Notes: a model not told the origin generated them from the letters alone. 40,000 nt of DNA from Sulfurospirillum multivorans DSM 12446 (GCF_000568815.1 NZ_CP007201.1:1705654-1745653), one strand, 5' to 3'; numbered from the stretch's first letter, positions 9,054-28,127 are shown. A program made the numbers and translations.

Positions 9054-9062
9054 GGTTTACTC

Positions 9063-14789: not shown

Positions 14790-15098
14790 ATGCAAATCAA
14801 TAGATTAAATTTTACAGAGCAACAACTCGAAAGAATTAAATTTTTAACCAAAGAAGAACAAGAAAAATTATCTAAAATTTGTAGTGCTTTGGCTATTGAT
14901 GGTTTATATATTTTTAGTGAAAGCAAAGAAGAATATCCGCTCAGTGATTGTCTTTGTGATATTGCTGACAAGTTGAGAGTTGAGGCTAGTGTTACACGAG
15001 AAGAATATTGCTACCTGTGTGGTGTTATGGGCGCAATGGACTTGGATAAAATCATCAATTTTGTTATCAAAAAGCTAAATAAAAAAATCAAGGAGTGA
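14790..15098 (+). CDS. Hypothetical protein (102 aa from MQINRL start)
   Basis: ORF with GGAAGGGA upstream of ATG 14790. No recognisable motif. Confidence 0.5.
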   Translation: MQINRLNFTEQQLERIKFLTKEEQEKLSKICSALAIDGLYIFSESKEEYPLSDCLCDIADKLRVEASVTREEYCYLCGVMGAMDLDKIINFVIKKLNKKIKE

Positions 15099-15104
15099 TT
15101 CAAC

Positions 15105-15728
15105 ATGTTGTTATTAAATTATTCAAAAAAAGAGTGGTTTTTAATTGGTGCTGGAGTAATGATTTACATTCTCGGCTTACTTTATAGTGCATCGTTCGAT
15201 CTCAATTACCTTGATACATCATTTCGAGAGTTTACGATACGCTTTTTTGTGTGTTCTTTGATATGGGTTGTGCCAAGTTCTACCTCTACGATAACTAAAG
15301 GGATTGGCTTTGAGCAATCATCTGATTTTCATTCATTTCAATATTTATTTGAAAAAGATGGTTCATTCATTGGAGCTGCAACGCTTTTGTTAATAATGGT
15401 GACTATTTTCTCTATTGGAGCACTAATCATTGACTATATTGAAAAAAATTCATCCAATAAAGAAAATGGAACCTCTTTTGAGAAAGAGATGAAAACCTCA
15501 AAAAAGATTCAAATTACCCTACCCTCATCGACAATTACGATGGTTATTGTGATTGTTGTGTCTTACTTTCTTGCGGTAGCGAAATTCGATCAACTTCTAT
15601 CTATGCTTTCGGGTTTTGTCATGGTATTTACTTGCCTCATGTTATTAGGGGCTATCGCTGAGGGCGGTACTTATGAATTTATTGAGCCTGAGCAAGAAGA
15701 ACCGGTTATAAAGGGAGAAGTAGAATGA
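15105..15728 (+). CDS. Integral membrane protein (207 aa)
   Basis: Several hydrophobic helices. Starts 6 nt after the previous stop. Confidence 0.6.
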   Translation: MLLLNYSKKEWFLIGAGVMIYILGLLYSASFDLNYLDTSFREFTIRFFVCSLIWVVPSSTSTITKGIGFEQSSDFHSFQYLFEKDGSFIGAATLLLIMVTIFSIGALIIDYIEKNSSNKENGTSFEKEMKTSKKIQITLPSSTITMVIVIVVSYFLAVAKFDQLLSMLSGFVMVFTCLMLLGAIAEGGTYEFIEPEQEEPVIKGEVE

Positions 15729-15761
15729 AAAACAAATGTAATCCAACAACAAGAATAGACG

Positions 15762-16310
15762 ATGAAAAACACTAATCGCAGTCCTCTTAAGCTCTTTTGG
15801 ACAACTCTTTTGCTTGGGGTTTTTGCATACTTGTGTCTAACATACGCCAACATTGAACATGAAAATATGGGTATGAGGCTTTTAGCTTTTTTCGTGATCT
15901 TTTTTGGTGGCTTTGCATATTTTGCATTTAATTTTGGCATCTTTAGCTTATTGATAATCTCGCTTTCTCAAAGTCGATTTAAAGGCTATTTTGTGCGTTT
16001 ACTTAGCCTTTGTTGGTCGCCTTTTATCTTTTTTTTTAAATATGGCTTGAATAAAATCAATAATTACAATGATCTTCAAAGGCTTTATCAGTCTCTGATT
16101 GAGCCAAGAGCTGCAATGAACGTTTTGATGTTCCTCACTGGTTTTTATGCCACATTACCAGTATTTGCAATTTGGTATCTCGTAGATCAGTTTTACATGA
16201 ACGGATATTTGATGGTCACATTTTTTGTTGCTGGCTTTTTCTTGCACGAATTTGGTCTCGAAATGATCCGAAACATCGTTATCCAAAAAATCCAAAGTTA
16301 TAAGGAGTAG
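15762..16310 (+). CDS. Integral membrane protein (182 aa)
   Basis: Multiple hydrophobic helices (LLLGVFAYLCLTY, LLAFFVIFFGGFAYFAF, and others). Confidence 0.6.
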   Translation: MKNTNRSPLKLFWTTLLLGVFAYLCLTYANIEHENMGMRLLAFFVIFFGGFAYFAFNFGIFSLLIISLSQSRFKGYFVRLLSLCWSPFIFFFKYGLNKINNYNDLQRLYQSLIEPRAAMNVLMFLTGFYATLPVFAIWYLVDQFYMNGYLMVTFFVAGFFLHEFGLEMIRNIVIQKIQSYKE

Positions 16311-16315
16311 TTTTT

Positions 16316-16555
16316 ATGTTGATCATCTATCTATCCACTTATTTTGCATACCTAGCTATTTTGTTGGTCATCGCTTTTTATAGCTTTTGCTTTTCACATA
16401 GCCCATTGCATATTTTTTCTGTAATCGTGGTTTTTATTGGGCTCGTTTTTTTCTTTTATTACCCCTCTTGGAAAATAGTAGTCCTAATTTTAGGTGTTGC
16501 TATTGCCGAGACTATCATTTCTGAAAGGAGAGTAAATGCAACTTGTATCAAGTAA
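16316..16555 (+). CDS. Small membrane protein (79 aa)
   Basis: Almost entirely hydrophobic. Starts 5 nt after the previous stop. Confidence 0.5.
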   Translation: MLIIYLSTYFAYLAILLVIAFYSFCFSHSPLHIFSVIVVFIGLVFFFYYPSWKIVVLILGVAIAETIISERRVNATCIK

Positions 16556-16678
16556 CTCTCAATAAAAGCAAAGGTTCGTCGTATTGCGTGATGAAAATAA
16601 GGTGATCATTCCGATAGATGATCCAAAAAATTTCGAGTTTATTGCAAATAAACTCATCCAACATAAAGAAGGACTCAA

Positions 16679-16960
16679 ATGAACAAATCAGAATTTATCC
16701 AAACAGTTGCCGAGAAATCAGGTTTAACAAAAAAAGCTACTGGCGAAGCAGTAGATGCGATTTTAGAGGTCATTGAAGCTTCCCTAGTTGCCGGTCAAGA
16801 CGTTAATTTTATCGGTTTCGGATCGTTTAGAGTTGCAAACAAAGCAGCTAGAATTGCAAGAGTACCTGGAACAGATAATACGATTGATGTTCCTGCAACA
16901 AAAGCGGTCAAATTTAAAGTGGGTAAGGCTCTTAAAGATTCCGTCGCTTCTGCGAAATAA
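16679..16960 (+). CDS. hup: Histone-like DNA-binding protein HU
   Basis: MNKSEFIQTVAEK..., GFGSFRV, ARVPGT and VKFKVGKALKD closely follow the HU/IHF family pattern. RBS AAGGA is present. Confidence 0.95.
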   Translation: MNKSEFIQTVAEKSGLTKKATGEAVDAILEVIEASLVAGQDVNFIGFGSFRVANKAARIARVPGTDNTIDVPATKAVKFKVGKALKDSVASAK

Positions 16961-16986
16961 TATCTCATTAAAGTACGCCAACATAG

Positions 16987-17023
16987 AGGTTAAATTGTAC
17001 TAACAAATAGTTCAATTTAACCT
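16987..17023. terminator. 11-bp inverted repeat between convergent genes
   Basis: AGGTTAAATTG (16987-16997) pairs with CAATTTAACCT (17013-17023) and is followed by TTTTATTATTT. Confidence 0.5.
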
Positions 17024-17027
17024 TTTA

Positions 17028-17522
17028 TTATTTGAGTAAATTTATATTATTTTCGAACTGTATATTCTTCTTCATCTTAGCTTTCATTTCAATTTCATAA
17101 ATTACTACTCTTAGTTCTTCGTTCTCAATAGTTAGCGTTTCAATTTTTCTACTCAACTTTTTTTTCTGATCTTTTATTTTTTGAAGCTCCTCATCTTTTT
17201 TCTTGATTTCTTTTTTCACTTGGAATAATTGTTCTGCAATTTCTAACTCAGTTGAAGTTACTGATAAAGATTCATATTTACCAATTCGTAGTTCTATCAT
17301 CAACGATTGTATATGTTCAAGTTCTTTATTTCTGAAGGCTGCTTCACTGACACCTTTCTTACGTGGATCAATCTCTTTAGTTTTTGCACTAACAGCTTGT
17401 ATAGTTTTGATTTCAAAATTTTCTTCTAACAACAGAATTGCTTGTCGGATAAGACTAATAGTATTTTCTTTTTTTTCATGTGCATGTTGATTTAAATTTG
17501 GGTTACCTCTTTTTTTTATCAT
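17028..17522 (-). CDS. Coiled-coil small protein (164 aa from MIKKRG start), last gene of the recombinase module
   Basis: Lys/Glu-rich heptad-like C-terminal half (KKEIKKKDEELQKIKDQKKKLSRKIETLTIENEELR). ATG 17520-17522 overlaps the upstream stop by 20 nt. Confidence 0.65.
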   Translation of the reverse strand: MIKKRGNPNLNQHAHEKKENTISLIRQAILLLEENFEIKTIQAVSAKTKEIDPRKKGVSEAAFRNKELEHIQSLMIELRIGKYESLSVTSTELEIAEQLFQVKKEIKKKDEELQKIKDQKKKLSRKIETLTIENEELRVVIYEIEMKAKMKKNIQFENNINLLK

Positions 17523-19053
17523 CTTCTTCTCCCTGCTTGACTTTATTATACAATGCGGCAAACAATGTTGCTCGATGATACGAATCTCTGGCATTAGTTT
17601 TATCATTTATAGTTAATTGCTTTTCAGATATTTTCAAATATCGATCTGCTTGTTCTAAGTAATAATCTTTCAATTCATTATCTGGAATTAAATCTTTGCA
17701 GTCTAAACATTCTAAATGATGTCCACAGCTTCTAATATCTGGGCAGAATCCAAGATTTGCAATTTTATGTGCTCTTGGATTGGATAATATTTTGTCTTTA
17801 GCTATATCATGCAGATTATGTATAATTTTCCCTTTAAATATATACTGGCTTGATAACTCTTTTGAATTTTCTAATACTTTTCTTTGTTCTTTTATCATAA
17901 AATTTAAAGAAGGCTCAGAGTATGCATCAATTGAATCATAAGTTCGATGATTTGCAAATTGTTGGAGCTGTGGAGTTGTCCAGCCAAATTCTGCACGAAT
18001 TGTTATACCCGTTTTTTTAAAATCCCGTGGAATTGCTCGTTTTGATTCTTCAATTCCTTCCTTCCTTTGAATAGCTCTAAAATAGTTAGATAGCATGTAA
18101 GTAGAAAGATATTGTATTGTACTAGTTTCATATTGGTACGTAAAAAGAAATCCTTTTTTACTAGCTTTTTCTTGTAGTTGCATACTAATATGTTGTTGTT
18201 TTTCTATAAGATTTATCAGCATTTTTTGCATGGGTTCATGTGAATTTAAAAAGCCTATTTTGTAATCTAGTTTTCCTCTATTCTTAGAGTTTTTAAGAAT
18301 AGCATGCTTTATAGTTACAATATCTTCTGAGAGTTTTTTAATGCAATCAAGAGGATAATTCAGAGTATCTTCAGGCCTTGTCCCAAATAAGCGCATAATC
18401 CAATATGCTACCCTTAGAAAAAGCAATGTTTCTTCTTTGCTAAAAATATTGTCAAGTTTTACAAGAATATCATTTTCAATGACTTTATATTTACTGTCTT
18501 TTGATTTTCTATCATAAGGATTTTCAATAGCTTCAATCCCTTGGATAAATGCTAATGAAGAGTGTCCATTTATTAAAGTATGGAATTTTAAAGCGCTTTT
18601 CAATAATACATGTTTATAAGACTCAGATAATAATTTCCCATTTTTTCCCCTTAATGAATCTAAGTAAAACATATAATGTTGAAATATCTCTTTTCTTATT
18701 TGCAATAAATTCAAATTTTCTTTAAATAAATAAATAAAGTATTTATGGAGATTTCTAATGATAGATTGATTGCCACCATTACTTATTACAATTACAGTAA
18801 ATAATTTTGCTATATATTTTCCTTCAGTACCTAAAAGATTGAATGAATATTTATATGACAAGCTATCAGGGTGTGATTTGTTAGATTTTTTATCCAGTAT
18901 CCAAGAATCTTCATGAAATGATGATGAAGAATATTTAGATAGCATTGTAATAATTTGATCTTCTGCCTCTTTTTCTTTATTTCGTTGTTCTTCAAGTATT
19001 GTTTTAAAGGCAAATTTTTGAATGTAAGTTATATTATTAGCAACTGCTACCAT
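17503..19053 (-). CDS. Large tyrosine recombinase-like protein (516 aa), third of the module
   Basis: FGTRPEDTL (Arg box) and ANHRTYDSIDAYS (His..Tyr tail). The C-terminal Cys cluster CPDIRSCGHHLECLDC parallels the one in the neighbouring recombinase. Overlaps the upstream gene by 17 nt. Confidence 0.7.
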   Translation of the reverse strand: MVAVANNITYIQKFAFKTILEEQRNKEKEAEDQIITMLSKYSSSSFHEDSWILDKKSNKSHPDSLSYKYSFNLLGTEGKYIAKLFTVIVISNGGNQSIIRNLHKYFIYLFKENLNLLQIRKEIFQHYMFYLDSLRGKNGKLLSESYKHVLLKSALKFHTLINGHSSLAFIQGIEAIENPYDRKSKDSKYKVIENDILVKLDNIFSKEETLLFLRVAYWIMRLFGTRPEDTLNYPLDCIKKLSEDIVTIKHAILKNSKNRGKLDYKIGFLNSHEPMQKMLINLIEKQQHISMQLQEKASKKGFLFTYQYETSTIQYLSTYMLSNYFRAIQRKEGIEESKRAIPRDFKKTGITIRAEFGWTTPQLQQFANHRTYDSIDAYSEPSLNFMIKEQRKVLENSKELSSQYIFKGKIIHNLHDIAKDKILSNPRAHKIANLGFCPDIRSCGHHLECLDCKDLIPDNELKDYYLEQADRYLKISEKQLTINDKTNARDSYHRATLFAALYNKVKQGEEDDKKKR

Positions 19054-19891
19054 TTTTTGCCTTTTGCACTGATAATAAGGTGTCTACTATACTCTTATAC
19101 GCATCTAATCGATGTTTTTGAATAGTATATTCCGCCCAAGTCGTATATTCATCTTTGGAAATTCCTTCATTTTCTAATGCATGAATCAATGCATCAAAGA
19201 TTATTTGTTGATTATCACGAAATTTAGTCCATGTATTCAAATAAGGAAGATCTGTTATAAGCCTTGCACAACTTGCGCAACTATCAGATGTTTGAAGCTT
19301 ACCGCACTCACCCATAATAGGATGTCTAATGCAATCACCATACTCCATTTTTCGTTTATGGATATATAGTTCCACAAATAAGTGCTCTTTTTCACTACGT
19401 GTATAAGTTTTTAAGTAGCTTTCATCAAACGAAATTTTAAAATGTCTTTTAAATAAATCTGTGTTCAGTTCTTCAATCTTTTTTTCCCTAATGAAAGCAT
19501 ATGCTCGCTCAGGAGTATGGTTTGTTAACCAACCAAAGAACGCTTTAATTTCCTCAGGAGCATGTCCTTTTTCTACCATTGTAGTAGCAAGCATAGAGCG
19601 CATTTGATAGGGTGTATAATTCCATAACTTATCTTCAAGGTCAGCCTTTATGTCATATTTTTGTATCAAGGAGTTTATTGCACGAATAAACTCTTTACTT
19701 GACGGAATATGAAACTTTACTTGATGTGCACGATTATTTGTCTTTCTAATAAAAATTGAATTACTATTGGACTCTTTCCTAATATTTTCACTTAGTGTCA
19801 CTTGTCTATAAAATGCATTTACAACATCTTCACTATATATAGGAACTTTTCGTATTGATTTTAATCCTTTTTTAGCATATGCTTTTTTTGT
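19037..19891 (-). pseudogene. Tyrosine recombinase 2, C-terminal catalytic portion (frame B)
   Basis: This frame is open from 19891 and reads TKKAYAKKGLKSIRKVPIYSED..., YQMRSMLATTM, FGWLTNHTPERAY. It is joined to the upstream frame only by a -1 shift at A AAA AAG (19882-19888). Confidence 0.75.
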
Positions 19892-21000
19892 TTATTAAGG
19901 AATATATTCAGAATATAACAATCAAGTTTTTTGTCATAAGCAAGTGAAGTGGGAGTTATATATGCAAGTTCGGAAGGTCTGCATCCTGTCGCAGACATAA
20001 TTAAAAAAGAATTCTTTATTTCTGGCGATAATTCATCAAGATGAAGACTAATTTGCAAGAAAACTTCTTCAGGTAAAGGCATTGTAGGAGTTTGTGCTAT
20101 ATTGTTTTTTATTGAAAAGGCTCTTGCTATTTTTTTGTAAATAACAAGTATTTCTTCAAAATCTGTACAATGATTAATTGCTTTTTGATTAGACATAAAT
20201 TTATAAAATGCAGAAATAGCATTTTTACATGTTCGTAGCGATTTAACATTGCTACTATGATTCAACCAATTGGCAATGTCTTGTTCTTTTATCTGCTTAA
20301 TATCAAGGTTGTTTATTTTAGATGTAATTTTTATATATTTAAAAAACTCTATTGCAATTTGAATCAGACGTTTATTTTTATCATTTGCCGCAATATATAA
20401 AGCATATGTTTTAATATCTGAACTAACTGTATCTTTTGCAATAATGTTGAGATTGAGATAAAAGCTTTGCCATTTATTATTTTTAATATAGCCTAAACGG
20501 TATTGTGTAGCGAATTTTGTAATGACTATTTTATTGAATATATTACTAAGTCTAATTTGTATTTGTTGATACTTCAATGATAACTGAATAAGTTTTTGAT
20601 AAATATTTTCATCGTAGAATCGTAGTTTTTTCAAAAAATTATTTTCTTGTTCAATATGAATTTGGAGTACTTTAGATAAAGAAATTTCATGATTATTGAG
20701 TAGTTGTTTTCTAAAGCTTTTTTTGATTAATGCAAACATTTCTTTTGGAAAAATTGCAAATGCATACATCATTGGAGTTGAAGTGCCAATGTTGAATTCT
20801 TTGGCTATAGATTTTAAAGTTCCATTTTCTCTAAACACTTGTTTAATACCATCAATCATCTTAAGTGTCATATGTATATTTTTATGTAAACTGAATGAAA
20901 AGTGAAAATCAAGTGTAATATTTCTCCAACCTTGATTCATATAATTGACTTTAGCATAATATCTTGTTGTTGGACAAACTCTTAATGGTAAAGAATTGTC
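19861..21000 (-). pseudogene. Tyrosine recombinase 2, middle portion (frame A) between the TIR-element insertion and the frameshift site
   Basis: Contains SATGCRPSELAYI (Arg box). The apparent TTG start of the track ORF at 21024 lies inside the element's TIR. The frame continues in phase from 26514..26971 once the element is removed. Confidence 0.75.
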
Positions 21001-21063
21001 CGATATTATGTAGCACGCGCACAAGACTTTTAGTCTGATTTCTCGTTAGACTTTCACTTAAAA
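21001..21063 (+). repeat. Left terminal inverted repeat
   Basis: CGATATTATGTAGCACGCGCACAAGACTTTTAGTCTGATTTCTCGTTAGACTTTCACTTAAAA. Contains an internal AGTCT..AGACT stem. Confidence 0.9.
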
Positions 21064-21077
21064 AGTGAGGTCACAAC

Positions 21078-21515
21078 ATGTCAACAAATCCAATTATATC
21101 AGGGCTATTAGATAAGAAAAAAGAGATACTTGGTAGCATTGAAGGTTATGAAGCATTAATTAAAAAAGCTCGTTTAAATCTTAGTGTTTTAAATCAAACT
21201 ATTGCTCTTTTTGATGAATCTTATACTAAAACTTCCACTCGTAAAATGCCACATCGTTATTTTGAAACAGGAGAAGCGAAAAAGCTTATCCTAGACGTAC
21301 TAAAATCATCTGATGTGCCACTGAAAACCAATGAAATTGCTTTACGTGTTGCAGAGAAAAAAGGTATTCCGTTAGACAATGAAGCACAGCAACACAACTT
21401 TCAAAAAACTATCATTGCATCACTTTCAACCATTGAGGCTTCTGGCTTAGTTCAAAAAGTAGGAAAAGATGGCTTAATGATCATTTGGAAAATAAAAGAG
21501 TTAGATAGTAAATAA
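21078..21515 (+). CDS. Hypothetical protein (145 aa), first cargo gene after the left TIR
   Basis: RBS GTGAGG precedes the ATG. The C-terminal part (KTNEIALRVAEKKGIPL...LVQKVGKDG) is possibly winged-helix-like, but this is weak. Confidence 0.55.
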   Translation: MSTNPIISGLLDKKKEILGSIEGYEALIKKARLNLSVLNQTIALFDESYTKTSTRKMPHRYFETGEAKKLILDVLKSSDVPLKTNEIALRVAEKKGIPLDNEAQQHNFQKTIIASLSTIEASGLVQKVGKDGLMIIWKIKELDSK

Positions 21516-21596
21516 ACAAAAATCAACTAAGCATATATTTTCGCTGTATAATATTAGATGGTTAAACGCTTATAATGTTAAAAGGATAAAACGATA

Positions 21597-21845
21597 ATGA
21601 GTGAAAGTCTTTTAGACAAAATTTTAAGTGATGAGACTTTTGAAGGGCTGCCTTTGAAGTTACACAAAGAGGGTAAAAACGTTATTTTATGCGCTGATGG
21701 AATACCTAACGGCGGTATATATATTGTTTATCCCAATAAAAAAGCGTGCCTTATAAGTTACGATAACACATTGAAAAAAAGTGTACTTGGTCGAGAATTG
21801 ACAGAAGCCGAGTATCAAATTATTGGTATAGAACACTACCAATAA
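21597..21845 (+). CDS. Hypothetical protein (82 aa)
   Basis: ORF only. Converges on the transposase gene with a 6-nt gap. Confidence 0.4.
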   Translation: MSESLLDKILSDETFEGLPLKLHKEGKNVILCADGIPNGGIYIVYPNKKACLISYDNTLKKSVLGRELTEAEYQIIGIEHYQ

Positions 21846-21851
21846 TTCATT

Positions 21852-22868
21852 TTATGCACCAAGTCTTTCACTTACTCTCTTGTTGCCTTGCCAATAGCCA
21901 CAAAACTCATTGGATACAGGGGCGTGAAGTGCTTTTGTAAGAATGTCACGAAAAATAGCTCCATTACTCCAACGTCTTGTATCTTCTCTATAAGCAATTT
22001 CATTGGCATAGTTTGAAAGATAAAGATTGCCCACTTTATGAAGTTGTCCATATTGCATACGACGAAACCGTGCATTATAGCTCTCACTTTGGTTGTTATT
22101 TTCACCATTATCACCACGGTATTCAATTTGGTGATTAACACGTCTCATTGTATAGTGAGCATGAAGATCATCATACGCATTTGATTCATCTGCATGAATG
22201 GCAGTTCCTGCTTTGATATGATTGTAGGCAATAGTTCTAATGTCAGTAGCATTTTCAGATTTGAGAACAAAGGTTTTTGTTTTAATAGCACCAATAGCCT
22301 CATCACTAAGCGTTGCACGCTGTCTTACAGAGATAATAACACGTTTATTGGGTTTGAAAACTTTACGTCTATCAACTCTATCATCAATGTTGTTTGCAGG
22401 TCGTATATACCCATTGACGTAAACACCATCCATCTCAACGGTTCCCTCGAATTTATCTTGAAGATTATACTCCATCAATGATTCTCTAATTTTATGTGTT
22501 AAAACCCATGCTGTTTTGTATTGCACATCTAAATCACGAGAGAGTTGTAACGCACTGATAGATTTTGCAGCATTGGTAAAAAGTGCAATGGCTAAAAGGT
22601 AAGTTTGCAAAGAGAGTTTATGTCCTGCGAACACAGTGCCACTGGTAACACTAAACGTATGGAAGCATTCACGGCAACGAAACTGCATACGTGTTTTTAG
22701 AAAAAATGGTTTTTTAACACTTCCACAACAAGGGCATACTGGCTCACCATTAGTATCTGACCATCGAATAGACTTCATCAATTCAAAGGCTTCCATGTCA
22801 CTCATTTTTACTATTTTCGTTAGTGATAAGTTTCTAGCTTGTGCAGAAAGTAAGAAATGTTGTGACAT
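21852..22868 (-). CDS. IS1595-family (ISXO2-like) transposase, 338 aa
   Basis: N-terminal Zn-ribbon (CPCCGS...CRECFHTFSVTSGT), helix block LQLSRDLDVQYKTAWVLTHKIRE, and a DDE-type region (VEMDGVYV...). Confidence 0.8.
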   Translation of the reverse strand: MSQHFLLSAQARNLSLTKIVKMSDMEAFELMKSIRWSDTNGEPVCPCCGSVKKPFFLKTRMQFRCRECFHTFSVTSGTVFAGHKLSLQTYLLAIALFTNAAKSISALQLSRDLDVQYKTAWVLTHKIRESLMEYNLQDKFEGTVEMDGVYVNGYIRPANNIDDRVDRRKVFKPNKRVIISVRQRATLSDEAIGAIKTKTFVLKSENATDIRTIAYNHIKAGTAIHADESNAYDDLHAHYTMRRVNHQIEYRGDNGENNNQSESYNARFRRMQYGQLHKVGNLYLSNYANEIAYREDTRRWSNGAIFRDILTKALHAPVSNEFCGYWQGNKRVSERLGA

Positions 22869-23021
22869 TTTGAGTCCTCTTATTTATTTATATCAATATT
22901 ATACATAAATATGTATAATAAAAACTTAAATATTTCATATAAATATCTATAAAATACATATTTATATTATTTAATGATATATATAAGCTTAAAATAAGTA
23001 ACTTTACGATAACATACCTTT

Positions 23022-23273
23022 ATGGAACTAAATGACTTAATCAATAAAATACACAAACTCATTGAAGCAAAAGAGCTTAAGAAAATCATTAAGCAAGAGG
23101 AAATGGCAAAACGTATTGGTGTAAAACCAAGAACCTACACTGAATATATTAGAGGTACGAATAAGCCATTAGCTATGAAAGCGCTTCTTAATATGCTTAA
23201 TGAACTTGATAATGATGATATAGTGAAAGTGGTTAGATCTTGGAAATCAACTGAAACTAAAGAAGTAGAATAA
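23022..23273 (+). CDS. Small HTH protein (83 aa), candidate R-M controller (C) protein
   Basis: HTH-like QEEMAKRIGVKPRTYTEYIRG. Its size and position directly upstream of the M and R genes fit a C protein. Confidence 0.5.
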   Translation: MELNDLINKIHKLIEAKELKKIIKQEEMAKRIGVKPRTYTEYIRGTNKPLAMKALLNMLNELDNDDIVKVVRSWKSTETKEVE

Positions 23274-23328
23274 TTGTAATTTATTACAAAATGAAATATT
23301 TTTAGAATTTATTATCTTCATTTTGTAA
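23274..23328 (+). promoter_or_regulatory. Clustered TTGTAA/TTACAA inverted repeats between the HTH and methylase genes
   Basis: TTGTAA-ttta-TTACAA at 23274-23289. A 12-bp perfect inverted repeat is formed by TTACAAAATGAA (23284-23295) and TTCATTTTGTAA (23317-23328). Confidence 0.4.
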
Positions 23329-23353
23329 TATATAAAAAATAAAAGGACAAAAT

Positions 23354-24172
23354 ATGTGTAAACCAATACTTAAATGGGTAGGCGGGAAAAGGCAGTTAAT
23401 GGCTGACCTTAAAAGATTAATGCCTAAAAAGTATAATAGATATTTTGAGCCGTTTATAGGTGGGGGTGCTTTATTCTTTGAATTAAAGCCTCAAAATGCT
23501 TTTATAAATGACTATAATAGTGAGCTTACCAATTTATATACTATAGTAAGAGATAAGCCTGAAGAACTTATTGAAAGCGTATGTAAACATAAAAATGAAT
23601 CAGAATATTATTACAACATAAGAGCTTTAGATAGAGATAAAAAGGTGTTTAAGTCACTGACTAATATTGAAAAAGCAAGTAGATTTATTTATCTTAATAA
23701 AGTGGGATTTAACGGGCTATATAGAGTAAATTCTCAAGGTCAATGTAATGTCCCTTTTGGTAGATATTCAAAACCAAGTTATTGTGACCCAGATAATATA
23801 AGAGCTTGTAGCGAATTACTAAAAAATACTGAAATTTCCACTGGGGATTTTGACCTGATTAAAGATAAAGTACAAGAAGGAGATCTTGTGTATCTTGATC
23901 CTCCTTATGTTCCTTTAAATGCAACTTCTAGCTTTACAGGTTATACAGACAAAGGCTTTGATGAAGATATGCAATTAAGACTTCGAGAATTATGTGATCA
24001 CATAGATGAAAAAGGAGCATACTTTATGCTTTCCAACTCATATACCGACTATATCCTTGAATTATATGATGTTGAAGGATATAAAATTCATACAGTGAAA
24101 GCAGATAGAAGCATTAATTCAAAAGCATCTGGTCGAGGGAAAGTTAAAGAAGTAATTGTAACTAATTATTAG
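23354..24172 (+). CDS. Dam/D12-class N6-adenine DNA methyltransferase
   Basis: KWVGGKRQL, FEPFIGGGALFF (AdoMet site) and YLDPPY (catalytic DPPY). Confidence 0.9.
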   Translation: MCKPILKWVGGKRQLMADLKRLMPKKYNRYFEPFIGGGALFFELKPQNAFINDYNSELTNLYTIVRDKPEELIESVCKHKNESEYYYNIRALDRDKKVFKSLTNIEKASRFIYLNKVGFNGLYRVNSQGQCNVPFGRYSKPSYCDPDNIRACSELLKNTEISTGDFDLIKDKVQEGDLVYLDPPYVPLNATSSFTGYTDKGFDEDMQLRLRELCDHIDEKGAYFMLSNSYTDYILELYDVEGYKIHTVKADRSINSKASGRGKVKEVIVTNY

Positions 24173-24181
24173 GGATAGATT

Positions 24182-25417
24182 ATGACAAAAATATCAAATA
24201 ATGATGCGTGGACTAACATATTTGATGATTTAAAAATTTTAGATAAAATCACTATTGATAGCTATTTCGATATTAGTGCAGATGAAATAAAAAGAAGAGA
24301 TGGCAAAGAAGCGCGACTCATGACGAAAATTGATCATAGAGAGCATTTACCTACTGTGATGCAAGAGAATGGATTATCAATCCTTGCTATTCAGAATGGA
24401 CTTTATCGTATTGCACGTACTGACCCATTCATTAATATTGAGAAAGAACCACAATGTCATGTAAAAATTATCCAACAGCCAACTAATGGCATTATCACTT
24501 TAGACCCTTTAAATATTCAAAGTGAATCCGCTGCACTTGATATAGCAAATATTTCAAACATTCTTGATGACGTGTTTGGAGAAAAAACTCTACTTACAAT
24601 ACGTGGTCGATTGAGAGGGGAGCTTTCCTTTAGCCTAAACTCTATCCCCTATGATATTAATGGTGTACAAATTGAAGTAGATGGTGGGTATGAGGGAGCG
24701 AAAAGTGTAAACCTTATTGAAGCAAAGTTGGGATATCGAGGAAATATAAACATTAGGCAGTTGTTATATCCTGAGCTTTTCTGGAAAAATCAATTACGTG
24801 GTCGAAGAAAAGAAGTTAAAAGCTTTATTTTTTATTATCAAGATGATATTTTTAGATTTATTCCTTTCAAATATGACGGCAATATTATAACAGCATCACA
24901 TGAAGAAGAAAAAGCTTTTGCTTTTAGTAGGGTATCAACTTTTCAGCTATCAAATATTGAGCAACCTACCAGATTATTGGTTAATGATGAAATCCCATTT
25001 CCTCAAGCTGATGATTTTGAAAAAATTCATGCAATCTTTTTAAATATTCAGAATGAGGAATGCCCACAAAAAGTAAATATTATTGGTAATTTTGATATTG
25101 AACTTGTTGAAAGACAATACGATTACTATTTTAATGTTCTAAGATGGATGAACCTTTGTACGGTTTGGAATGGATGTATTGCATTAACAGAACAAGGAAA
25201 ATACTTATTATCGTTAAATATTGAAAAGCGAATGGAAGAATTTACTCGCATTATTTTTTCAGAAACAATTTGCTACAAGGTACTCAAAGGGTTACCTCAG
25301 AATGAAGCTGATTTTGCAAGATATCATATCAGTGGTTCAACTATAAAACGAAGATTATCTACTATTCGTTCATGGATTAAGTATTTTAATAATTTTTTTG
25401 AAAAGAAATTATTTTGA
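24182..25417 (+). CDS. Putative type II restriction endonuclease (411 aa)
   Basis: Immediately follows the methylase. PD-(D/E)xK-like motif VDGGYEGAKSVNLIEAKLG. Specificity cannot be inferred. Confidence 0.55.
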   Translation: MTKISNNDAWTNIFDDLKILDKITIDSYFDISADEIKRRDGKEARLMTKIDHREHLPTVMQENGLSILAIQNGLYRIARTDPFINIEKEPQCHVKIIQQPTNGIITLDPLNIQSESAALDIANISNILDDVFGEKTLLTIRGRLRGELSFSLNSIPYDINGVQIEVDGGYEGAKSVNLIEAKLGYRGNINIRQLLYPELFWKNQLRGRRKEVKSFIFYYQDDIFRFIPFKYDGNIITASHEEEKAFAFSRVSTFQLSNIEQPTRLLVNDEIPFPQADDFEKIHAIFLNIQNEECPQKVNIIGNFDIELVERQYDYYFNVLRWMNLCTVWNGCIALTEQGKYLLSLNIEKRMEEFTRIIFSETICYKVLKGLPQNEADFARYHISGSTIKRRLSTIRSWIKYFNNFFEKKLF

Positions 25418-25605
25418 GTGCAGATATTCATACAATTGAATACGATAAACAAACAGGCAAGATAACTCTAAATATTTACTCCAGTGATAACTTTTTAGAA
25501 TCACAAATAGATATTACAGAGCAAGTAACGACTTTGGTTTTGGAGAAATTATACGATGAGTATCAATTGAGTATTGGTGATGAATTAGTCATCACCAAAC
25601 ATTAA
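25414..25605 (+). CDS. Hypothetical protein (63 aa), coupled to the endonuclease gene
   Basis: Start overlaps the upstream stop (TTGA; TTG start codon). No motif recognised. Confidence 0.4.
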   Translation: MSADIHTIEYDKQTGKITLNIYSSDNFLESQIDITEQVTTLVLEKLYDEYQLSIGDELVITKH

Positions 25606-25853
25606 TTATTTATTGAATTTTGACCATCTGTATAGCCTAATTCGAAAGCCTCTTGAGCATTTTTATGTCGTACTGTTCCTGCTTGACTGTCTGGGAGTAC
25701 TGATAAATCTATTACGTTTGGAAGTCCATTTTGCCCTGCATTAAAGCCAATATCATAAGCACATCCACAACATTTATGACGCTTTTCTCCACTTTGAGCA
25801 TCATTTAGCCCATCAAATTTTGGATCGTATCTATGACCATGTGTACAAACCAT
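25602..25853 (-). CDS. Hypothetical Cys/His-containing protein (83 aa)
   Basis: ORF with HGH and KCCGC motifs. The palindrome TAGAAAT-ga-ATTTCTA lies just upstream. Confidence 0.4.
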   Translation of the reverse strand: MVCTHGHRYDPKFDGLNDAQSGEKRHKCCGCAYDIGFNAGQNGLPNVIDLSVLPDSQAGTVRHKNAQEAFELGYTDGQNSINN

Positions 25854-25950
25854 TTTAATTCCTTTAGAAATGAATTTCTAACATTATAAATCAATCAAAA
25901 TGTTTTTTTACTTAATTTAACTATTAAATTCTTACTAAATAATCAAAATT

Positions 25951-26238
25951 TTAAAACTTTTCATATAAATCTAATAAAACAACATTTTGATTCAATAGAC
26001 TATCTGTTCTGCTAATAAGCAAATCCAATTCAATATTCTCATTCATCTCTGGGGCACTTGCATCAATAAGAACTTGGCTCAGTTCAACAATTTTGTGAAA
26101 AGTGTCAAAATGCCTGTACTCATCTTTTTTAGTTAATAACTGATCTAAAGCTTTTTGACATTCTGTTCGCATGTGAATCAAGTTATTCAATGCTTGTGTT
26201 TGCATAGCTGTTGCTTCCAAGTAGTATCCTTTTTGCAA
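25951..26238 (-). CDS. Hypothetical helical protein (95 aa)
   Basis: ORF only. Confidence 0.4.
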   Translation of the reverse strand: MQKGYYLEATAMQTQALNNLIHMRTECQKALDQLLTKKDEYRHFDTFHKIVELSQVLIDASAPEMNENIELDLLISRTDSLLNQNVVLLDLYEKF

Positions 26239-26450
26239 AATGGGCTTGAAATATTGTGATATTTTAGCGTATAATTATATCGGAATAGTATTTTTGGCTC
26301 CACATCTGTGCTTGAGCTGTTTCACTTTTAGTGGATACTATTTCAAAGCACTCTTTGACGTAATAAAAAGATTACGCTCAGTCGAATCATATAGGTTGGA
26401 GTGCTTTATTCTCCTCTTTCCTTCTTGTTATCTACAACATTAATCCATTA

Positions 26451-26513
26451 TTTTAAGTGAAAGTCTAACGAGAAATCAGGCTAAAAGTCTTGTGCGCGTG
26501 CTACATAATATCG
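26451..26513 (-). repeat. Right terminal inverted repeat
   Basis: Its reverse complement is identical to 21001-21063 except for one T/C difference at repeat position 34. Confidence 0.9.
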
Positions 26514-26971
26514 GAATTGTCAGTAAATCCATTGTCTATTATGTTGTCAATATATTGATTAAATGATGTAATACCTTTATCTATTTTACCCCTGAAAAAA
26601 TCTCTATTTTGTACATTGAAACCATGATATTCAAAGTAAGCATACTGATGAATCCAATATTGAGAAAAGCATACATGTGCATGATATTCCAAGTAAACTT
26701 GTACCAATTTTGAATCTTTTTGCAGTGCTATTTCCAATAATGCCCAAACCACTTTCTCAAGCTTTAGAGATCGCTTTTCATCAAATATTGTTTCAGCTAT
26801 TTCCAATAAAACAAGGTTCTTACTATGTAATAATTTCACAAAATAACGCCATTCATTAAACTGCAAAGAAATCTCTTTTAAAATGTGAATACTATGTCGT
26901 GATAAGTTAAACATCTCTTGTTCAATGACAATATAATGAAATTTATTCTTGTAAGCGTATTTAATCATCAA
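26514..26971 (-). pseudogene. Tyrosine recombinase 2, N-terminal portion cut off by the TIR element
   Basis: Start overlaps the stop of recombinase 1 by 11 nt. The present stop (26501-26503) is supplied by the TIR. Confidence 0.75.
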
Positions 26972-28127
26972 GCTTTCTTTGTAATTCTAATAAACGTTGA
27001 TTAATATCCTCAGCATGTTTTTTTGCAAAATCTTTAACTATTGCAGCATTGGCATGCTCAACATAAGGCGTGATTGAGTCAATTGTTTTCCATCCCATGA
27101 TATGTCTAATGATTTCATCTGTGAGATTCAATTCACCATTCACCATAGCCTTTACAAGTTTTGTAGCTTTGTCAGAACGTCCAGAATGTGTACGCACATT
27201 ACCTAATATGCCTGCTTTTTTTGCCGCAATCTTCAAGGCACTACGAAAAGACGAAGCAGAGTATTCATTAAAATGAACTTCTTTTTCAATTGCGCGGGTA
27301 TTGACAAATAGTGCATCATTGTACTTTAAAGCTTTTATTTCAGCAGGATTACGCTCATGTAAAATATAATTTTCAATAACTTTGACCGTTTGATCACCTA
27401 GAACGATGGTTCGTTTTTTACCACGACCTTTACCTTTTGAGCGACTTGGTATGATTGTGTTATCTCTAGGGTTGTAATCTTTGAGCTTGACAGAAAGGAC
27501 TTCATCAATTCTCATCCCATGTAGTGTAAGAAGAAAAATGGATCGATTTCTATAATTAGTAAAATTTGAATAGATCGCTTTTATTTCATCATCAGAGTAT
27601 TCCATCACATACTCTTTGTTTGCTGTTTTGAATTTAGTAAGGAATAGATCAAGTGTTGCATCAGTGATAGATTCAACATGATCCCAGCGTAAAGATAATG
27701 TTGTTTTGTATTGTAAAAAATTACCCTTGTGCCAATTATTGATTTCAAGGACACTATGGTCTGTAAATTGCCAAAGAAATTTGTAAAATCGAATTATCAT
27801 TTCTTTGTGCCTCATGATTGTCGTGAAACCTATATTAGGCTCATTTACAATTTCACAAGATTTTGAATCAAAATTAATAATATAAAGAATATAAGCTTTG
27901 ATATCAGCATCAGTCGCATTCCAGTATTCAGTGTCTCTTTCTAATAAAAAGTTGAAAAATTTCACCAAAATATGACCAACAAGCTTCCCATATTTTAATG
28001 AATTTTTTGATCGATTACTAACAAATAAGCTAGAATAAAAATCTGGAACATTAGGGCTACATATGAAGAAAAAATACGTTATTGTCCCATTATTATGAGT
28101 TTTCCTGCCATAGCGCAACTGATACAT
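26961..28127 (-). CDS. Tyrosine recombinase 1 (388 aa), Tn554 TnpA-like by architecture
   Basis: LHGMRIDEVLSVKL (Arg box), RTHSGRSDKATKL (H-x-x-R), HIMGWKTIDSITPYV (Trp/His and Tyr). Confidence 0.85.
   Translation of the reverse strand: MYQLRYGRKTHNNGTITYFFFICSPNVPDFYSSLFVSNRSKNSLKYGKLVGHILVKFFNFLLERDTEYWNATDADIKAYILYIINFDSKSCEIVNEPNIGFTTIMRHKEMIIRFYKFLWQFTDHSVLEINNWHKGNFLQYKTTLSLRWDHVESITDATLDLFLTKFKTANKEYVMEYSDDEIKAIYSNFTNYRNRSIFLLTLHGMRIDEVLSVKLKDYNPRDNTIIPSRSKGKGRGKKRTIVLGDQTVKVIENYILHERNPAEIKALKYNDALFVNTRAIEKEVHFNEYSASSFRSALKIAAKKAGILGNVRTHSGRSDKATKLVKAMVNGELNLTDEIIRHIMGWKTIDSITPYVEHANAAIVKDFAKKHAEDINQRLLELQRKLDD

What the first reader, a model, noticed from the sequence alone, without database searches (positions are those of the whole stretch)
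20993..26521. 5.5-kb element with 63-bp terminal inverted repeats and an 8-bp TSD, carrying an R-M system, inserted inside a tyrosine recombinase gene
Seen:
- 21001-21063 and the reverse complement of 26451-26513 are identical at 62 of 63 positions.
- Both copies are flanked by GAATTGTC (20993-21000 and 26514-26521).
- Deleting the element plus one GAATTGTC copy joins ORF 26514..26971 to ORF 19861..21000 in frame (..IIDNGFTDN-S-LPLRVCPTTRYY..).
- The present stop of the upstream fragment and the apparent TTG start of the downstream fragment both lie in TIR sequence.
- Cargo: two small ORFs, an IS1595-type transposase (338 aa), an HTH/Dam-class methylase/PD-ExK endonuclease cassette, and three small ORFs.

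Established knowledge: IS1595-family elements make 8-bp duplications, and some subgroups carry passenger genes.

Inference: this is a cargo-bearing IS1595-type transposon that moves a complete restriction-modification system. Its TIRs are far longer than the roughly 27-bp IRs of the second IS1595 copy at 31824-33897 and are unrelated to them. They also contain a GC-rich core (GCACGCGCAC) and a stem (AGTCT..AGACT).
Basis: partly seen in the sequence, partly recalled or inferred. Interest (0 to 1): 0.7.

Follow-up and report, generated by a model that had tools for sequence, protein, structure and literature searches.

The report
Restriction-modification-carrying IS1595 family transposon
A 5.5-kb jumping gene of the IS1595 family, carrying a complete restriction-modification (DNA defence) operon, has inserted into and split a recombinase gene of another mobile element. 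It belongs to a widespread lineage in Campylobacterota in which nearly every larger member carries a different restriction-modification system.

Summary
The 63-nt terminal inverted repeats match at 62/63 positions, and an 8-bp GAATTGTC repeat flanks the element. Removing the element rejoins the split gene in frame.

Intact 800-807-aa homologues of that gene exist. One related contig, L088, shows the empty site with the 8-bp target present once.

The element is an autonomous IS1595-family "transporter IS". It encodes a 338-aa Zn-ribbon/DDE transposase. Its cargo is an HTH regulator, a Dam-family methyltransferase and a type II restriction enzyme.

I delimited 36 relatives, mostly from Campylobacterota. 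They share a ~24-nt TIR (CGATATTATGTAGCAnnnGCACAA), and 21 of them have perfect 8-bp duplications at 20 different insertions. They share chassis genes: the transposase, a winged-helix protein (orf145) and a 63-75-aa protein (orf63). Sizes run from 1.76 kb (no cargo) to 8.8 kb. Cargo is almost always R-M, of types I-like, II, IIG or III.

The 63-nt TIR is not a family trait. The cargo-side end here is a copy of the transposase-side end, and orf63 is truncated next to it, which points to an earlier end replacement.

IS1595 elements with passenger genes, and R-M units with inverted repeats and 8-bp duplications, are already published. This is a new member of a known kind. The R-M specialisation of the lineage is the interesting part.

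The parts
20993..21000 (.). Left copy of the 8-bp target-site duplication, GAATTGTC.
   Evidence: The homologous empty site in L088 has one copy, GACAACTC on the gene's sense strand.
21001..21063 (+). Left terminal inverted repeat, at the transposase-3' side ('IRR'). The family-conserved core is 21001-21024. The extension 21025-21063 lies just upstream of orf145.
   Evidence: The core is conserved in relatives. The extension matches only the IRR-side ends of relatives.
21078..21515 (+). orf145, a conserved chassis gene. It is predicted to have an N-terminal long helix and a C-terminal winged-helix DNA-binding domain.
   Evidence: Homologues sit next to the transposase 3' end in about 40 loci and form a cluster of 22. 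AlphaFold pLDDT is 83.6. Foldseek top hits are Fur, MarR and PadR winged-helix regulators, at weak E-values. No Pfam or NCBIfam hit.
21597..21845 (+). orf82, a lineage-specific small ORF of unknown function.
   Evidence: No family hit and no homologue in the related loci. It is present in the 99.6%-identical contig L003.
21852..22868 (-). IS1595-family transposase, 338 aa, with a zinc ribbon and an ISXO2-like DDE domain.
   Evidence: PF12760 at 6e-13, PF12762 at 2e-35, and NF033547 at 120.5 bits against a cutoff of 75. There are 4348 homologues. All family-invariant residues are present.
22869..23021 (.). Divergent intergenic region between the transposase and the cargo operon. It contains an AT-rich imperfect palindrome at 22884-22986.
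   Evidence: I2, I22. A regulatory role is inferred only.
23022..23273 (+). 83-aa HTH_3 regulator, the first gene of the cargo operon. It could be a C-protein-like controller or a chassis regulator.
   Evidence: HTH_3 at 1e-6. The PADLOC Control_protein hit is weak, at 0.009. Homologues are paired with unrelated R-M types: L028 type III, L134 and L173 type IIG.
23354..24172 (+). Dam-family (D12 class) N6-adenine DNA methyltransferase, 272 aa.
   Evidence: PF02086 at 5e-70. TIGR00571 at 307.5 bits against a cutoff of 114.85. PADLOC MTase_II at 2e-101.
24182..25417 (+). Putative type II restriction endonuclease, 411 aa.
   Evidence: PADLOC REase_II PDLC03513 at E 3.9e-46, covering residues 6-369 of 411. 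Pfam hits are DUF6996, DUF6997 and DUF7226. No relative with a solved structure.
25414..25605 (+). orf63, a conserved chassis gene. It overlaps the stop of the REase gene by 4 nt. Here it lacks the family's basic C-terminal tail.
   Evidence: Family of at least 26 members. Homology to relatives ends at about 25597.
25606..26450 (-). Lineage-specific right arm with two minus-strand ORFs: 25602-25853 (83 aa) and 25951-26238 (95 aa). The origin is unknown. There is no remnant of the ancestral cargo-side TIR.
   Evidence: No homologue in any fetched locus. No orf145-like remnant. No IRL remnant. 26390-26412 is 21/23 identical to the MTase motif-I DNA.
26451..26513 (-). Right terminal inverted repeat, an IRR-type copy (62/63) of the left end.
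   Evidence: It matches the IRR ends of L008, L009 and L010 over 41-75 nt.
26514..26521 (.). Right copy of the 8-bp target-site duplication, GAATTGTC.
26522..26971 (-). N-terminal fragment (about 150 codons) of the interrupted 803-aa tyrosine recombinase gene.
   Evidence: It is colinear with the intact homologues P0121-P0134.
19037..20992 (-). C-terminal part of the interrupted recombinase gene. It is one 634-aa ORF in CP042966.1. In the window it is split again by an A7/A8 homopolymer difference at 19882-19890.
   Evidence: P0122 is 634 aa and 100% identical.

Best explanation
The 5,513-bp segment 21001-26513 is an autonomous IS1595-family transposon, a 'transporter IS'.

**Insertion.** Its own Zn-ribbon/DDE transposase recognises the roughly 24-nt terminal repeats. 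It inserted the whole unit into codon ~150 of an 803-aa tyrosine recombinase gene. That gene sits in a recombinase operon (388 aa, 803 aa, 516 aa, 164 aa) of another integrative element. The insertion duplicated 8 bp (GAATTGTC) and inactivated the gene.

**Lineage.** The element belongs to a lineage found mostly in Campylobacterota with a fixed chassis:
- cargo-side TIR
- orf63
- cargo slot
- small regulator
- transposase (divergent from the cargo operon)
- orf145, a winged-helix protein (convergent with the transposase)
- transposase-side TIR

In this lineage the slot is nearly always filled with an R-M system. Here the slot holds a type II operon: an HTH regulator, a Dam-family methyltransferase and a restriction endonuclease.

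**Inferred, not shown.**
- The R-M genes protect the host against foreign DNA, and through post-segregational killing they also stabilise the transposon.
- The small regulator and orf145 control cargo expression and transposition.
- The unusually long 63-nt TIR is a scar of an earlier rearrangement. That event truncated orf63, added about 0.85 kb of foreign sequence, and replaced the original cargo-side end with a copy of the transposase-side end. The rearranged unit was still able to transpose, because the 8-bp duplication flanks exactly these ends.
For: **Anatomy**
- TIRs match at 62/63 and the 8-bp duplication is present.
- The transposase domains score above curated cutoffs.

**Insertion**
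- Excising the element in silico restores an 803-aa ORF.
- Fourteen homologues were found. Twelve are intact proteins of 800-807 aa and one is 793 aa; the fourteenth (P0122, 634 aa) is this locus's own C-terminal fragment. The best (P0121) is 86% identical over 100% of the query and colinear across the junction.
- Contig L088 carries the intact operon. Its two BLAST segments against the window overlap by exactly the 8-nt target.

**The TIR belongs to this transposase clade**
- The TIR core is found about 0.5 kb downstream of the transposase gene in nearly all loci with at least 57% transposase identity. It is absent from loci with 30-39% identity.
- Of 36 delimited relatives, 21 have perfect 8-bp duplications at 20 different insertions; two share one octamer with different flanks, and one element was seen on two contigs. 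Sizes are 1,763-8,765 bp.
- There is no nested IR in the window.

**Chassis genes**
- orf145 is in 22 elements and orf63 is in 14 elements of the genome-derived set, and both recur in the metagenome set.

**Cargo**
- PADLOC and Pfam give R-M components of types I-like, II, IIG and III in about 30 of 33 cargo-bearing elements.

**End replacement**
- Relatives' TIRs have a median of 24 nt and a maximum of 32 nt.
- The window's right end matches only IRR-type ends beyond 28 nt.
- orf63 lacks its conserved tail.
Against: - **Single site.** Only one insertion site of this exact element is known: the same site in CP042966.1 and in the reads of SRR29904084. The exact TIR variant was not found in the metagenome collection. 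Current activity is therefore unproven.
- **Related, not identical, empty site.** The empty site comes from a related element (83-89% nucleotide identity), not from an isogenic strain.
- **No experimental data.** Nothing here tests transposition, methylation or restriction. The endonuclease call rests on one HMM family and three DUFs.
- **Uncertain controller.** The C-protein role is weak (E 0.009), and no C-box was identified.
- **Unknown donor.** The donor of the right arm, and therefore the end-replacement scenario, is not identified.
- **Incomplete census.** The family census comes from pattern-selected loci and is not exhaustive.
Confidence: 0.9

Rival explanations
1. The long 63-nt TIR is functional rather than a rearrangement scar. 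In this sub-lineage, extra binding sites for the transposase or orf145 at positions 25-63 are needed at both ends.
For: - The extension is almost perfectly conserved between the two ends, at 62/63.
- It contains the palindrome GACTTTTAGTC directly upstream of the winged-helix gene orf145.
- The element transposed with these ends.
Against: - All 36 delimited relatives work with TIRs of about 24 nt. This includes the closest ones: L089 at 86% and L092 at 82% transposase identity.
- The palindrome's second half is not conserved in relatives' IRRs.
- The one mismatch breaks the palindrome in the right copy.
- The truncated orf63 and the unrelated 0.85-kb arm point to a rearrangement.
Confidence: 0.12
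2. The unit is non-autonomous or dead. It was placed here by a different transposase acting in trans, for example the 69%-identical paralogue P0061 in the same genome or the second IS1595 element at 31824-33897. The resident transposase gene is then only a passenger.
For: - Non-autonomous relatives exist. L150/L164 has the TIRs, a duplication and R-M genes, but no transposase.
- The source genome carries another transposase of the family (P0061).
Against: - The resident 338-aa ORF is full length and keeps every family-invariant residue.
- The TIR type co-varies with this transposase clade.
- The second IS1595 element in the window has unrelated 27-nt IRs.
Confidence: 0.06
3. The cargo is not a working R-M system. 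It could be an orphan methyltransferase with a decayed or unrelated neighbour, so the element moves a methylase rather than a defence or addiction module.
For: - The 411-aa protein has only DUF hits in Pfam, none in NCBIfam, and no relative with a solved structure.
- The methyltransferase also scores as an 'orphan MTase' model, at 4e-101.
Against: - The PADLOC REase_II match is near full length, at E 3.9e-46.
- The genes are tightly packed and co-oriented, with intact ORFs.
- Relatives carry clearly complete R-M systems in the same slot.
Confidence: 0.12
4. The inverted repeats and the 8-bp repeat are chance or ancestral features of a genomic island, and no transposition occurred.
For: None beyond the absence of a second identical copy.
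Against: - Zero matches in 100 shuffles.
- An empty site exists in L088.
- There are 20 other insertions of family members with 8-bp duplications.
Confidence: 0.01

Closest known systems
IS1595-family insertion sequences with passenger genes ('transporter IS'; Siguier, Gagnevin & Chandler 2009, as summarised in PMC11891212). From my own memory, the passenger-carrying groups are ISNha5, ISNwi1+ and ISPna2+.
   Same: - The transposase has an N-terminal zinc ribbon and an ISXO2-like DDE domain.
- Short TIRs and 8-bp duplications.
- Passenger genes lie inside the IRs.
- The size range of several kb is the same (size range from memory).
   Different: - Subgroup membership could not be tested because ISfinder was not available.
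- This lineage has two extra conserved accessory genes (orf145 and orf63) and a defined cargo slot.
- In the sample examined, that slot is filled almost exclusively with R-M systems.
- This copy has a 63-nt TIR made of two transposase-side ends.
Transposon-like R-M units of Furuta, Abe & Kobayashi 2010 (PMC2853133). The N. gonorrhoeae NCCP11945 unit has 26-bp IRs, an 8-bp duplication, R-M genes and a COG3677 transposase-like gene. The X. oryzae unit has 60/65-bp IRs, an 8-bp duplication and no transposase.
   Same: - R-M genes lie between terminal inverted repeats.
- An 8-bp target duplication was shown against an empty site.
- The gonococcal unit also carries a COG3677 transposase-like gene, which from my own knowledge I take to be of the IS1595/IS1 type.
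- The X. oryzae unit also has unusually long IRs.
- L150/L164 found here is the same kind of transposase-less unit.
   Different: - Those were single cases with a probably inactive transposase or none, and the authors left the mobilising enzyme open.
- Here the transposase is intact.
- The TIR-transposase link is supported by dozens of loci.
- Many R-M types occupy one chassis.
C-protein-controlled type II R-M operons such as PvuII and AhdI (own knowledge).
   Same: A small HTH gene precedes the M and R genes in one operon.
   Different: - No C-box was identified.
- The same small regulator families are combined with type IIG and type III cargo in relatives.
- The regulator may therefore belong to the transposon chassis rather than to the R-M system.
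Larger transposons with defence cargo, such as Tn7-like elements (own knowledge).
   Same: A transposon chassis carries a variable slot enriched for defence systems.
   Different: - The transposition machinery is much simpler: a single DDE transposase with no target selector.
- The cargo is much smaller.
- The cargo is restricted almost entirely to R-M.

Membership tests
IS1595 family (insertion sequences) | The transposase has an N-terminal zinc-ribbon domain and an ISXO2-like DDE catalytic domain. | tested here: met
   PF12760 at 49 bits (cutoff 25.4), PF12762 at 122.4 bits (cutoff 27), and NF033547 at 120.5 bits (cutoff 75).
IS1595 family (insertion sequences) | 8-bp target-site duplication. 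| tested here: met
   GAATTGTC on both sides. One copy at the empty site in L088. Twenty further insertions of relatives have perfect 8-bp repeats.
IS1595 family (insertion sequences) | Terminal inverted repeats that belong to the resident transposase, with no nested IS. | tested here: met
   The same ~24-nt TIR flanks this transposase clade in dozens of loci. There is no third TIR in the window.
IS1595 family (insertion sequences) | Assignment to a named subgroup by catalytic motif (DDNK, DDEK, DDHK or DDER) and by similarity to ISfinder reference elements. | tested here: inconclusive
   Invariant D147, D227/E228 and E262 with R269 seven residues later suggest a DDE-R pattern. The catalytic residues were not mapped and ISfinder could not be searched. 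The nearest annotated plasmid relatives are 39-47% identical and named only 'IS1595 family transposase'.
IS1595 family (insertion sequences) | Demonstrated transposition. | not testable with these tools
   Only comparative evidence is available: the empty site and multiple insertions of relatives.
Transporter IS (tIS) | Genes unrelated to transposition lie between the IRs of an otherwise IS-like element. | tested here: met
   The HTH, MTase and REase genes lie inside the TIRs. Cargo-free relatives of 1,763 bp with the same ends exist (L015-L017).
Type II restriction-modification system | A DNA methyltransferase is present. | tested here: met
   TIGR00571 Dam family at 307.5 bits against a cutoff of 114.85. 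PF02086 at 5e-70.
Type II restriction-modification system | A cognate restriction endonuclease with a nuclease active site is present. | tested here: inconclusive
   PADLOC REase_II PDLC03513 at E 3.9e-46, near full length. Pfam gives only DUFs, there is no PDB relative, and the fold and PD-(D/E)xK motif were not examined.
Type II restriction-modification system | A controller (C) protein with its C-box operator. | tested here: inconclusive
   HTH_3 at 1e-6. The PADLOC Control_protein hit is only 0.009. No C-box was identified. Homologous regulators accompany unrelated R-M types.
Type II restriction-modification system | Matching methylation and cleavage specificity. | not testable with these tools
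   This needs methylome and cleavage assays.
Tn554-like / multi-tyrosine-recombinase integrative elements (the host of the insertion) | Two adjacent tyrosine recombinase genes in one operon. | tested here: met
   The 388-aa protein matches PF00589 at 2.5e-16. The 803-aa protein's C-terminal part matches PF00589 and contains the ATGCRPSE box I and HxxR/Y-like motifs. The same four-gene operon is intact in L088.
Tn554-like / multi-tyrosine-recombinase integrative elements (the host of the insertion) | Sequence relationship to Tn554 TnpA, TnpB and TnpC, with site-specific insertion and no TIR or duplication. | not tested
   The ends of the host element were not sought. The 516-aa and 164-aa proteins have no family hits.

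The most novel reading that the evidence does not exclude
This IS1595 lineage is a dedicated shuttle for restriction-modification systems.

- Its chassis is a 24-nt TIR, a DDE transposase, the winged-helix protein orf145, a small regulator and orf63.
- It has one defined cargo slot. The first gene of the slot is the chassis regulator. The last gene, orf63, starts within about 13 nt of the stop of whatever R-M gene precedes it.
- Type I-like, II, IIG and III systems have been exchanged in this slot many times.
- The lineage has also spawned transposase-less R-M cassettes, which can presumably be mobilised in trans.

If this is real and not yet described, it is a general and experimentally tractable answer to how R-M systems move as units between genomes in Campylobacterota.
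Probability: 0.45. Interest if true: 0.6.

Novelty: new member of a known kind. Interest (0 to 1): 0.42.

Why it matters
- **A clean example of R-M mobility.** How R-M systems move between genomes has been argued mostly from context, such as linkage to mobility genes and flanking repeats. Here an intact transposase, intact ends, a perfect target duplication and a matching empty site give an unusually clear case of an R-M operon travelling as the passenger of a simple one-transposase element.
- **An accessible defence-gene vehicle.** The family survey suggests this is the normal lifestyle of a whole IS1595 lineage. That would make it a small defence-gene vehicle that can be studied with mating-out assays and methylome sequencing.
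- **Conflict between mobile elements.** The insertion knocks out the large recombinase of another integrative element.
- **Practical annotation point.** The 634-aa 'recombinase' and the 155-aa hypothetical protein annotated in CP042966.1 are two halves of one gene.

Tried and rejected
- **Plasmids and phages.** Megablast of the whole element against both collections gave no match. tblastn of the transposase against plasmids gave only relatives below 47% identity, with generic names and no ISfinder name.
- **Exact-protein look-ups.** Look-ups of the transposase and of the flanking recombinase-operon proteins found only the same insertion, in CP042966.1 and in reads of SRR29904084. No second site and no isogenic empty site turned up.
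- **Contig L002.** This 5,507-nt Logan contig ends 3 nt inside each TIR. I first considered it evidence for multiple copies or a circle. I rejected that reading: the outer 33 nt of both TIRs are identical, so a k=31 assembly (the k value is my assumption about the assembler, not a tool result) must break exactly there.
- **Exact TIR variant.** The window-specific TIR variant was not found in metagenome contigs.
- **Right arm 25606-26450.** It has no homologue in any fetched locus, no orf145-like remnant by HMM, and no degenerate cargo-side TIR. The donor of the replaced end remains unknown.
- **Promoter and terminator scan.** Fewer promoter-like sites than in shuffles and no terminators.
- **orf63 structure.** The single-sequence model had pLDDT 62, too low for a fold search.
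- **GACTTTTAGTC palindrome.** I considered the palindrome in the TIR extension as a C-box or operator. Its second half is not conserved in relatives, so no claim is made.
- **Siguier et al. 2009.** The paper could not be read. Subgroup sizes and motifs are from memory.

Full report
**1. The observation**

- The arms 21001-21063 and 26451-26513 are complementary at 62 of 63 positions, and similarity stops sharply at position 64.
- The repeat finder extends each arm by 2 nt into the flank. This is only because the last two bases of the direct repeat happen to be complementary.
- The outer 33-mer occurs nowhere else in the 40-kb window, and it never appeared in 100 shuffles.
- GAATTGTC directly abuts both ends.
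- Deleting the element and one repeat copy fuses the two minus-strand ORFs into one reading frame across ..NGFTDN-S-LPLRV...
- The present stop of the upstream fragment (26501-26503) and the TTG 'start' of the downstream fragment (21022-21024) both lie in TIR sequence.

**2. Source**

- The window is 99.995% identical to CP042966.1. That record is Sulfurospirillum multivorans strain N (PMC7755780).
- The only difference is an A7 run in the window versus A8 in CP042966.1, at 19882-19890.
- With A8, the excised locus encodes one 803-aa protein.
- The A7 variant is otherwise seen only in an assembly of run SRR29904084, which has the same insertion at the same site.

**3. Proof of insertion**

- The reconstructed 803-aa protein has 14 homologues. 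Twelve are intact proteins of 800-807 aa, one is 793 aa, and the fourteenth (P0122, 634 aa) is the locus's own C-terminal fragment in CP042966.1. All carry the Phage_integrase domain.
- The best, P0121, is 802 aa and 86% identical over the full length.
- All intact homologues are colinear through the junction. P0121 reads NGFTDNSLPLRV, identical to the reconstruction.
- P0121's contig, L088, carries the whole operon intact: 388-aa recombinase, 802 aa, 517 aa and 163 aa.
- L088 aligns to the window in two segments: 1199-2836 with 28151-26514, and 2829-6836 with 21000-16993. These overlap in L088 by exactly 8 nt (GACAACTC), which is the single-copy target.
- This is an empty site, although in a related element (83-89% nucleotide identity) rather than in an isogenic strain.

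**4. What the element encodes**

| Coordinates | Strand | Product | Evidence |
|---|---|---|---|
| 21852-22868 | - | 338-aa transposase with IS1595 zinc ribbon and ISXO2-like DDE domain | Both above Pfam cutoffs; NCBIfam NF033547 120.5 bits vs cutoff 75 |
| 23022-23273 | + | 83-aa HTH_3 protein | |
| 23354-24172 | + | 272-aa Dam-family methyltransferase | TIGR00571 307.5 bits; PADLOC MTase_II 2e-101 |
| 24182-25417 | + | 411-aa putative type II restriction enzyme | PADLOC REase_II model over almost its whole length, E 3.9e-46 |

- The 411-aa protein has only DUF hits in Pfam and no relative with a solved structure. The 'PD-ExK' label remains untested.
- The remaining ORFs are 145, 82, 63, 83 and 95 aa. 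None has a family hit.

**5. The family**

*How relatives were collected.*
- The transposase has thousands of homologues. The closest are in Arcobacter, Malaciobacter, Sulfurimonas, Sulfurovum and Campylobacter.
- I fetched 80 genomic loci, four contigs of the closest relatives, and 120 metagenome loci selected by the TIR pattern.

*Shared ends and duplications.*
- The outer part of the window's TIR, CGATATTATGTAGCAnnnGCACAA, lies about 0.5 kb downstream of the transposase gene in nearly all loci with at least 57% transposase identity. It is absent from the 30-39% relatives.
- Thirty-six relatives could be delimited by a TIR pair.
- Twenty-one of them, representing 20 different insertions, have perfect AT-rich 8-bp duplications at different targets. 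Examples are AATATTAT, ACAATTTG, GTTTTTCC, CAAAAAAG, GGATTAAA and CAATTCTG.
- Element sizes are 1,763 bp (L015-L017; transposase plus one small gene) up to 8,765 bp (L096).
The transposase and the TIRs belong together, and the window has no nested IRs.

*The chassis.* All-against-all clustering of element ORFs shows a constant layout:
- cargo-side TIR
- an orf63-type gene (63-90 aa)
- variable genes
- a small (~80 aa) regulator gene
- the transposase, divergent from the cargo operon
- an orf145-type gene, convergent with the transposase
- transposase-side TIR

*orf145.*
- orf145 (window 21078-21515) has homologues in about 40 loci at 24-53% identity.
- Its model has pLDDT 83.6. It shows a 45-residue N-terminal helix followed by a three-helix, β-hairpin winged-helix domain.
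- The best structural neighbours are Fur, MarR and PadR-type DNA-binding domains, at weak E-values of 0.008-0.04.
- I infer a DNA-binding accessory or regulatory protein. Its target is unknown.

*orf63.*
- orf63 is highly conserved (..TLEYNKxTGKITLNTY..DIT..LALEKLYDDYGL..GDEL.ITKKKSL..).
- In about 20 elements it starts within roughly 13 nt of the stop of the preceding gene, whatever that gene is. In the window the overlap is 4 nt.
- Two 2.2-kb elements, L019 and L190, have the complete chassis and nothing in the slot.

*The cargo.*
- Type IIG fusion enzymes: L006, L020, L036, L062, L122, L134, L173, L196.
- Type III Mod plus Res: L028, L096, probably L132.
- Type I-like methyltransferase plus S subunit: L004, L089.
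- Type II methyltransferases with a known or unknown partner: L005, L012 (HNH partner), L018, L022/L023, L033, L050, L092, L139.
- A methyltransferase with a HerA-like ATPase: L032, L010.
- The clear exception is L014, which carries a DUF6036 nucleotidyltransferase.
- L150/L164 has the family TIRs and a perfect duplication (TAAAATTC). It carries only an HSDR_N/N6_Mtase/S fusion and an S subunit, with no transposase. This is a non-autonomous R-M cassette.
- About 30 of 33 cargo-bearing elements therefore carry R-M components. This count comes from pattern-selected loci and is not a formal census.

**6. The 63-nt TIR**

- In the 36 relatives, the two ends match over a median of 24 nt and a maximum of 32 nt.
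- Beyond position 24, the transposase-side end ('IRR') is conserved between elements (..GCACAAGACTTT..). The cargo-side end is not.
- Both ends of the window element are IRR-type. The right end matches the IRR ends of L008, L009 and L010 over 41-75 nt, and it matches no cargo-side end beyond 28 nt.
- The window's orf63 lacks the family's basic C-terminal tail.
- Nucleotide homology to relatives stops at about 25597.
- No remnant of the normal cargo-side TIR follows.
- The next 0.85 kb (two small minus-strand ORFs) has no counterpart in any fetched locus and no orf145-like remnant.
- I infer that an earlier rearrangement replaced the cargo-side end with a copy of the transposase-side end.
- The 8-bp duplication flanks these very ends, so the rearranged unit transposed afterwards.
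- The donor and the mechanism are unknown.
- Other members (L010, L033, L062, L128, L132) also have extra genes outside orf63, but they have normal short TIRs.

**7. Mechanism**

Shown:
- Insertion by a mechanism that duplicates 8 bp.
- Ends shared with a transposase clade.
- Cargo lying inside the ends.

From established knowledge of DDE insertion sequences:
- The transposase binds the TIRs, cleaves, and joins the 3'-OH ends to staggered target positions 8 bp apart.

Inferred:
- The R-M operon gives host defence and, through post-segregational killing, stability to the element.
- The small regulator delays restriction on entry.
- orf145 and orf63 act in regulation or in end recognition.

**8. 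Comparison with what is known**

- IS1595-family elements with passenger genes ('transporter IS') were defined by Siguier et al. 2009, quoted in PMC11891212. The original paper could not be read.
- Furuta et al. 2010 (PMC2853133) described R-M units with 26-bp IRs, an 8-bp duplication and a COG3677 transposase-like gene in N. gonorrhoeae. They also described a unit with 60/65-bp IRs and an 8-bp duplication in X. oryzae, each shown against an empty site. Both that paper and a later one from the same laboratory list the IS1595 paper in their references, next to other papers on transposon-linked R-M systems.
- The element is therefore a new member of a known kind.
- I did not find three things described elsewhere: the lineage-wide chassis with two conserved accessory genes, the near-exclusive and highly diverse R-M cargo, and the double-IRR architecture of this copy. 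ISfinder could not be consulted, so their novelty is uncertain.

**9. Verdict**

- Confidence that this is an IS1595-family transposon that carried an R-M operon into the recombinase gene is 0.9.
- Interest is moderate, at 0.42. It is a textbook-quality example of a known kind, with a family-level pattern worth a systematic follow-up.

Noticed in passing
window 19882-19890: The window has a run of 7 A where CP042966.1 has 8 A. This adds a frameshift to the already interrupted recombinase gene, giving 387-aa and 254-aa ORFs instead of one 634-aa ORF. The A7 form is otherwise seen only in an assembly of run SRR29904084. It could be a real mutation or a sequencing difference.
   Followed up: partly
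window 31816-33905: A second, unrelated IS1595-family element lies at 31824-33897. It has 27-nt IRs (GGTAACTATATACAAGTTTACACAAAA) and a perfect 8-bp duplication, TAAATTTT. It carries a 303-aa transposase and a 351-aa P63C-domain passenger gene.
   Followed up: partly
L150:6340-10690 (same element on L164:4615-8965): A 4,351-bp unit has the family TIRs and a perfect 8-bp duplication (TAAAATTC) but no transposase or orf145. Its only genes are a 1,036-aa HSDR_N/N6_Mtase/Methylase_S fusion and a 208-aa S subunit. This is a non-autonomous R-M cassette, presumably mobilised in trans.
   Followed up: partly
L141:1465-2263: A 799-bp TIR pair encloses only an orf145 homologue. No duplication was seen. 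It may be a deletion derivative.
   Followed up: no
Window 25414-25417, and about 20 related elements (e.g. L012, L020, L036, L122, L127, L196): The conserved orf63 gene starts within about 13 nt of the stop codon of the preceding cargo gene, often overlapping it, even though those genes are unrelated (REase, type IIG enzyme, S subunit). It is unexplained how cargo is exchanged while this junction stays tight.
   Followed up: partly
window 26390-26412 vs 23455-23477: A 23-nt stretch near the right TIR is 21/23 identical to the DNA encoding methyltransferase motif I (FIGGGALFF). It may be a remnant of an earlier methylase gene in the replaced right arm.
   Followed up: no
window 21025-21035 and 26479-26489: The palindrome GACTTTTAGTC lies in the TIR extension just upstream of the winged-helix gene orf145. 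The single TIR mismatch falls inside it in the right copy. The GACTTT half is conserved in relatives' transposase-side ends, but the other half is not.
   Followed up: partly
L043:94-441 and 8889-9392: A homologue of the window's methyltransferase (63-68% identity) is split into two pieces 8.4 kb apart. This suggests another insertion inside an R-M cargo gene.
   Followed up: no
L096:96-8860: One TIR pair (8,765 bp, duplication AAAAAATT) contains two transposase-like ORFs (411 and 353 aa) together with type III Res and Mod genes. It may be a nested or fused element.
   Followed up: no
L014:1-3067: This is the clearest delimited cargo-bearing relative without R-M genes. It carries a DUF6036 nucleotidyltransferase and a 162-aa protein, possibly a toxin-antitoxin-like pair.
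   Followed up: no
window 13798-19053 and 26961-28127: The insertion lies in a low-GC (26-33%) region that holds several integrase or recombinase genes (315 aa at 13798-14745, 388 aa, 803 aa) and an HU-like gene. This suggests a larger integrated element whose ends were not sought.
   Followed up: no
L094 and L095 (IMG/VR contigs): The family TIR core occurs once in each of two contigs classed as viral. L095 also has a distant methyltransferase homologue next to it. No complete element was seen.
   Followed up: partly
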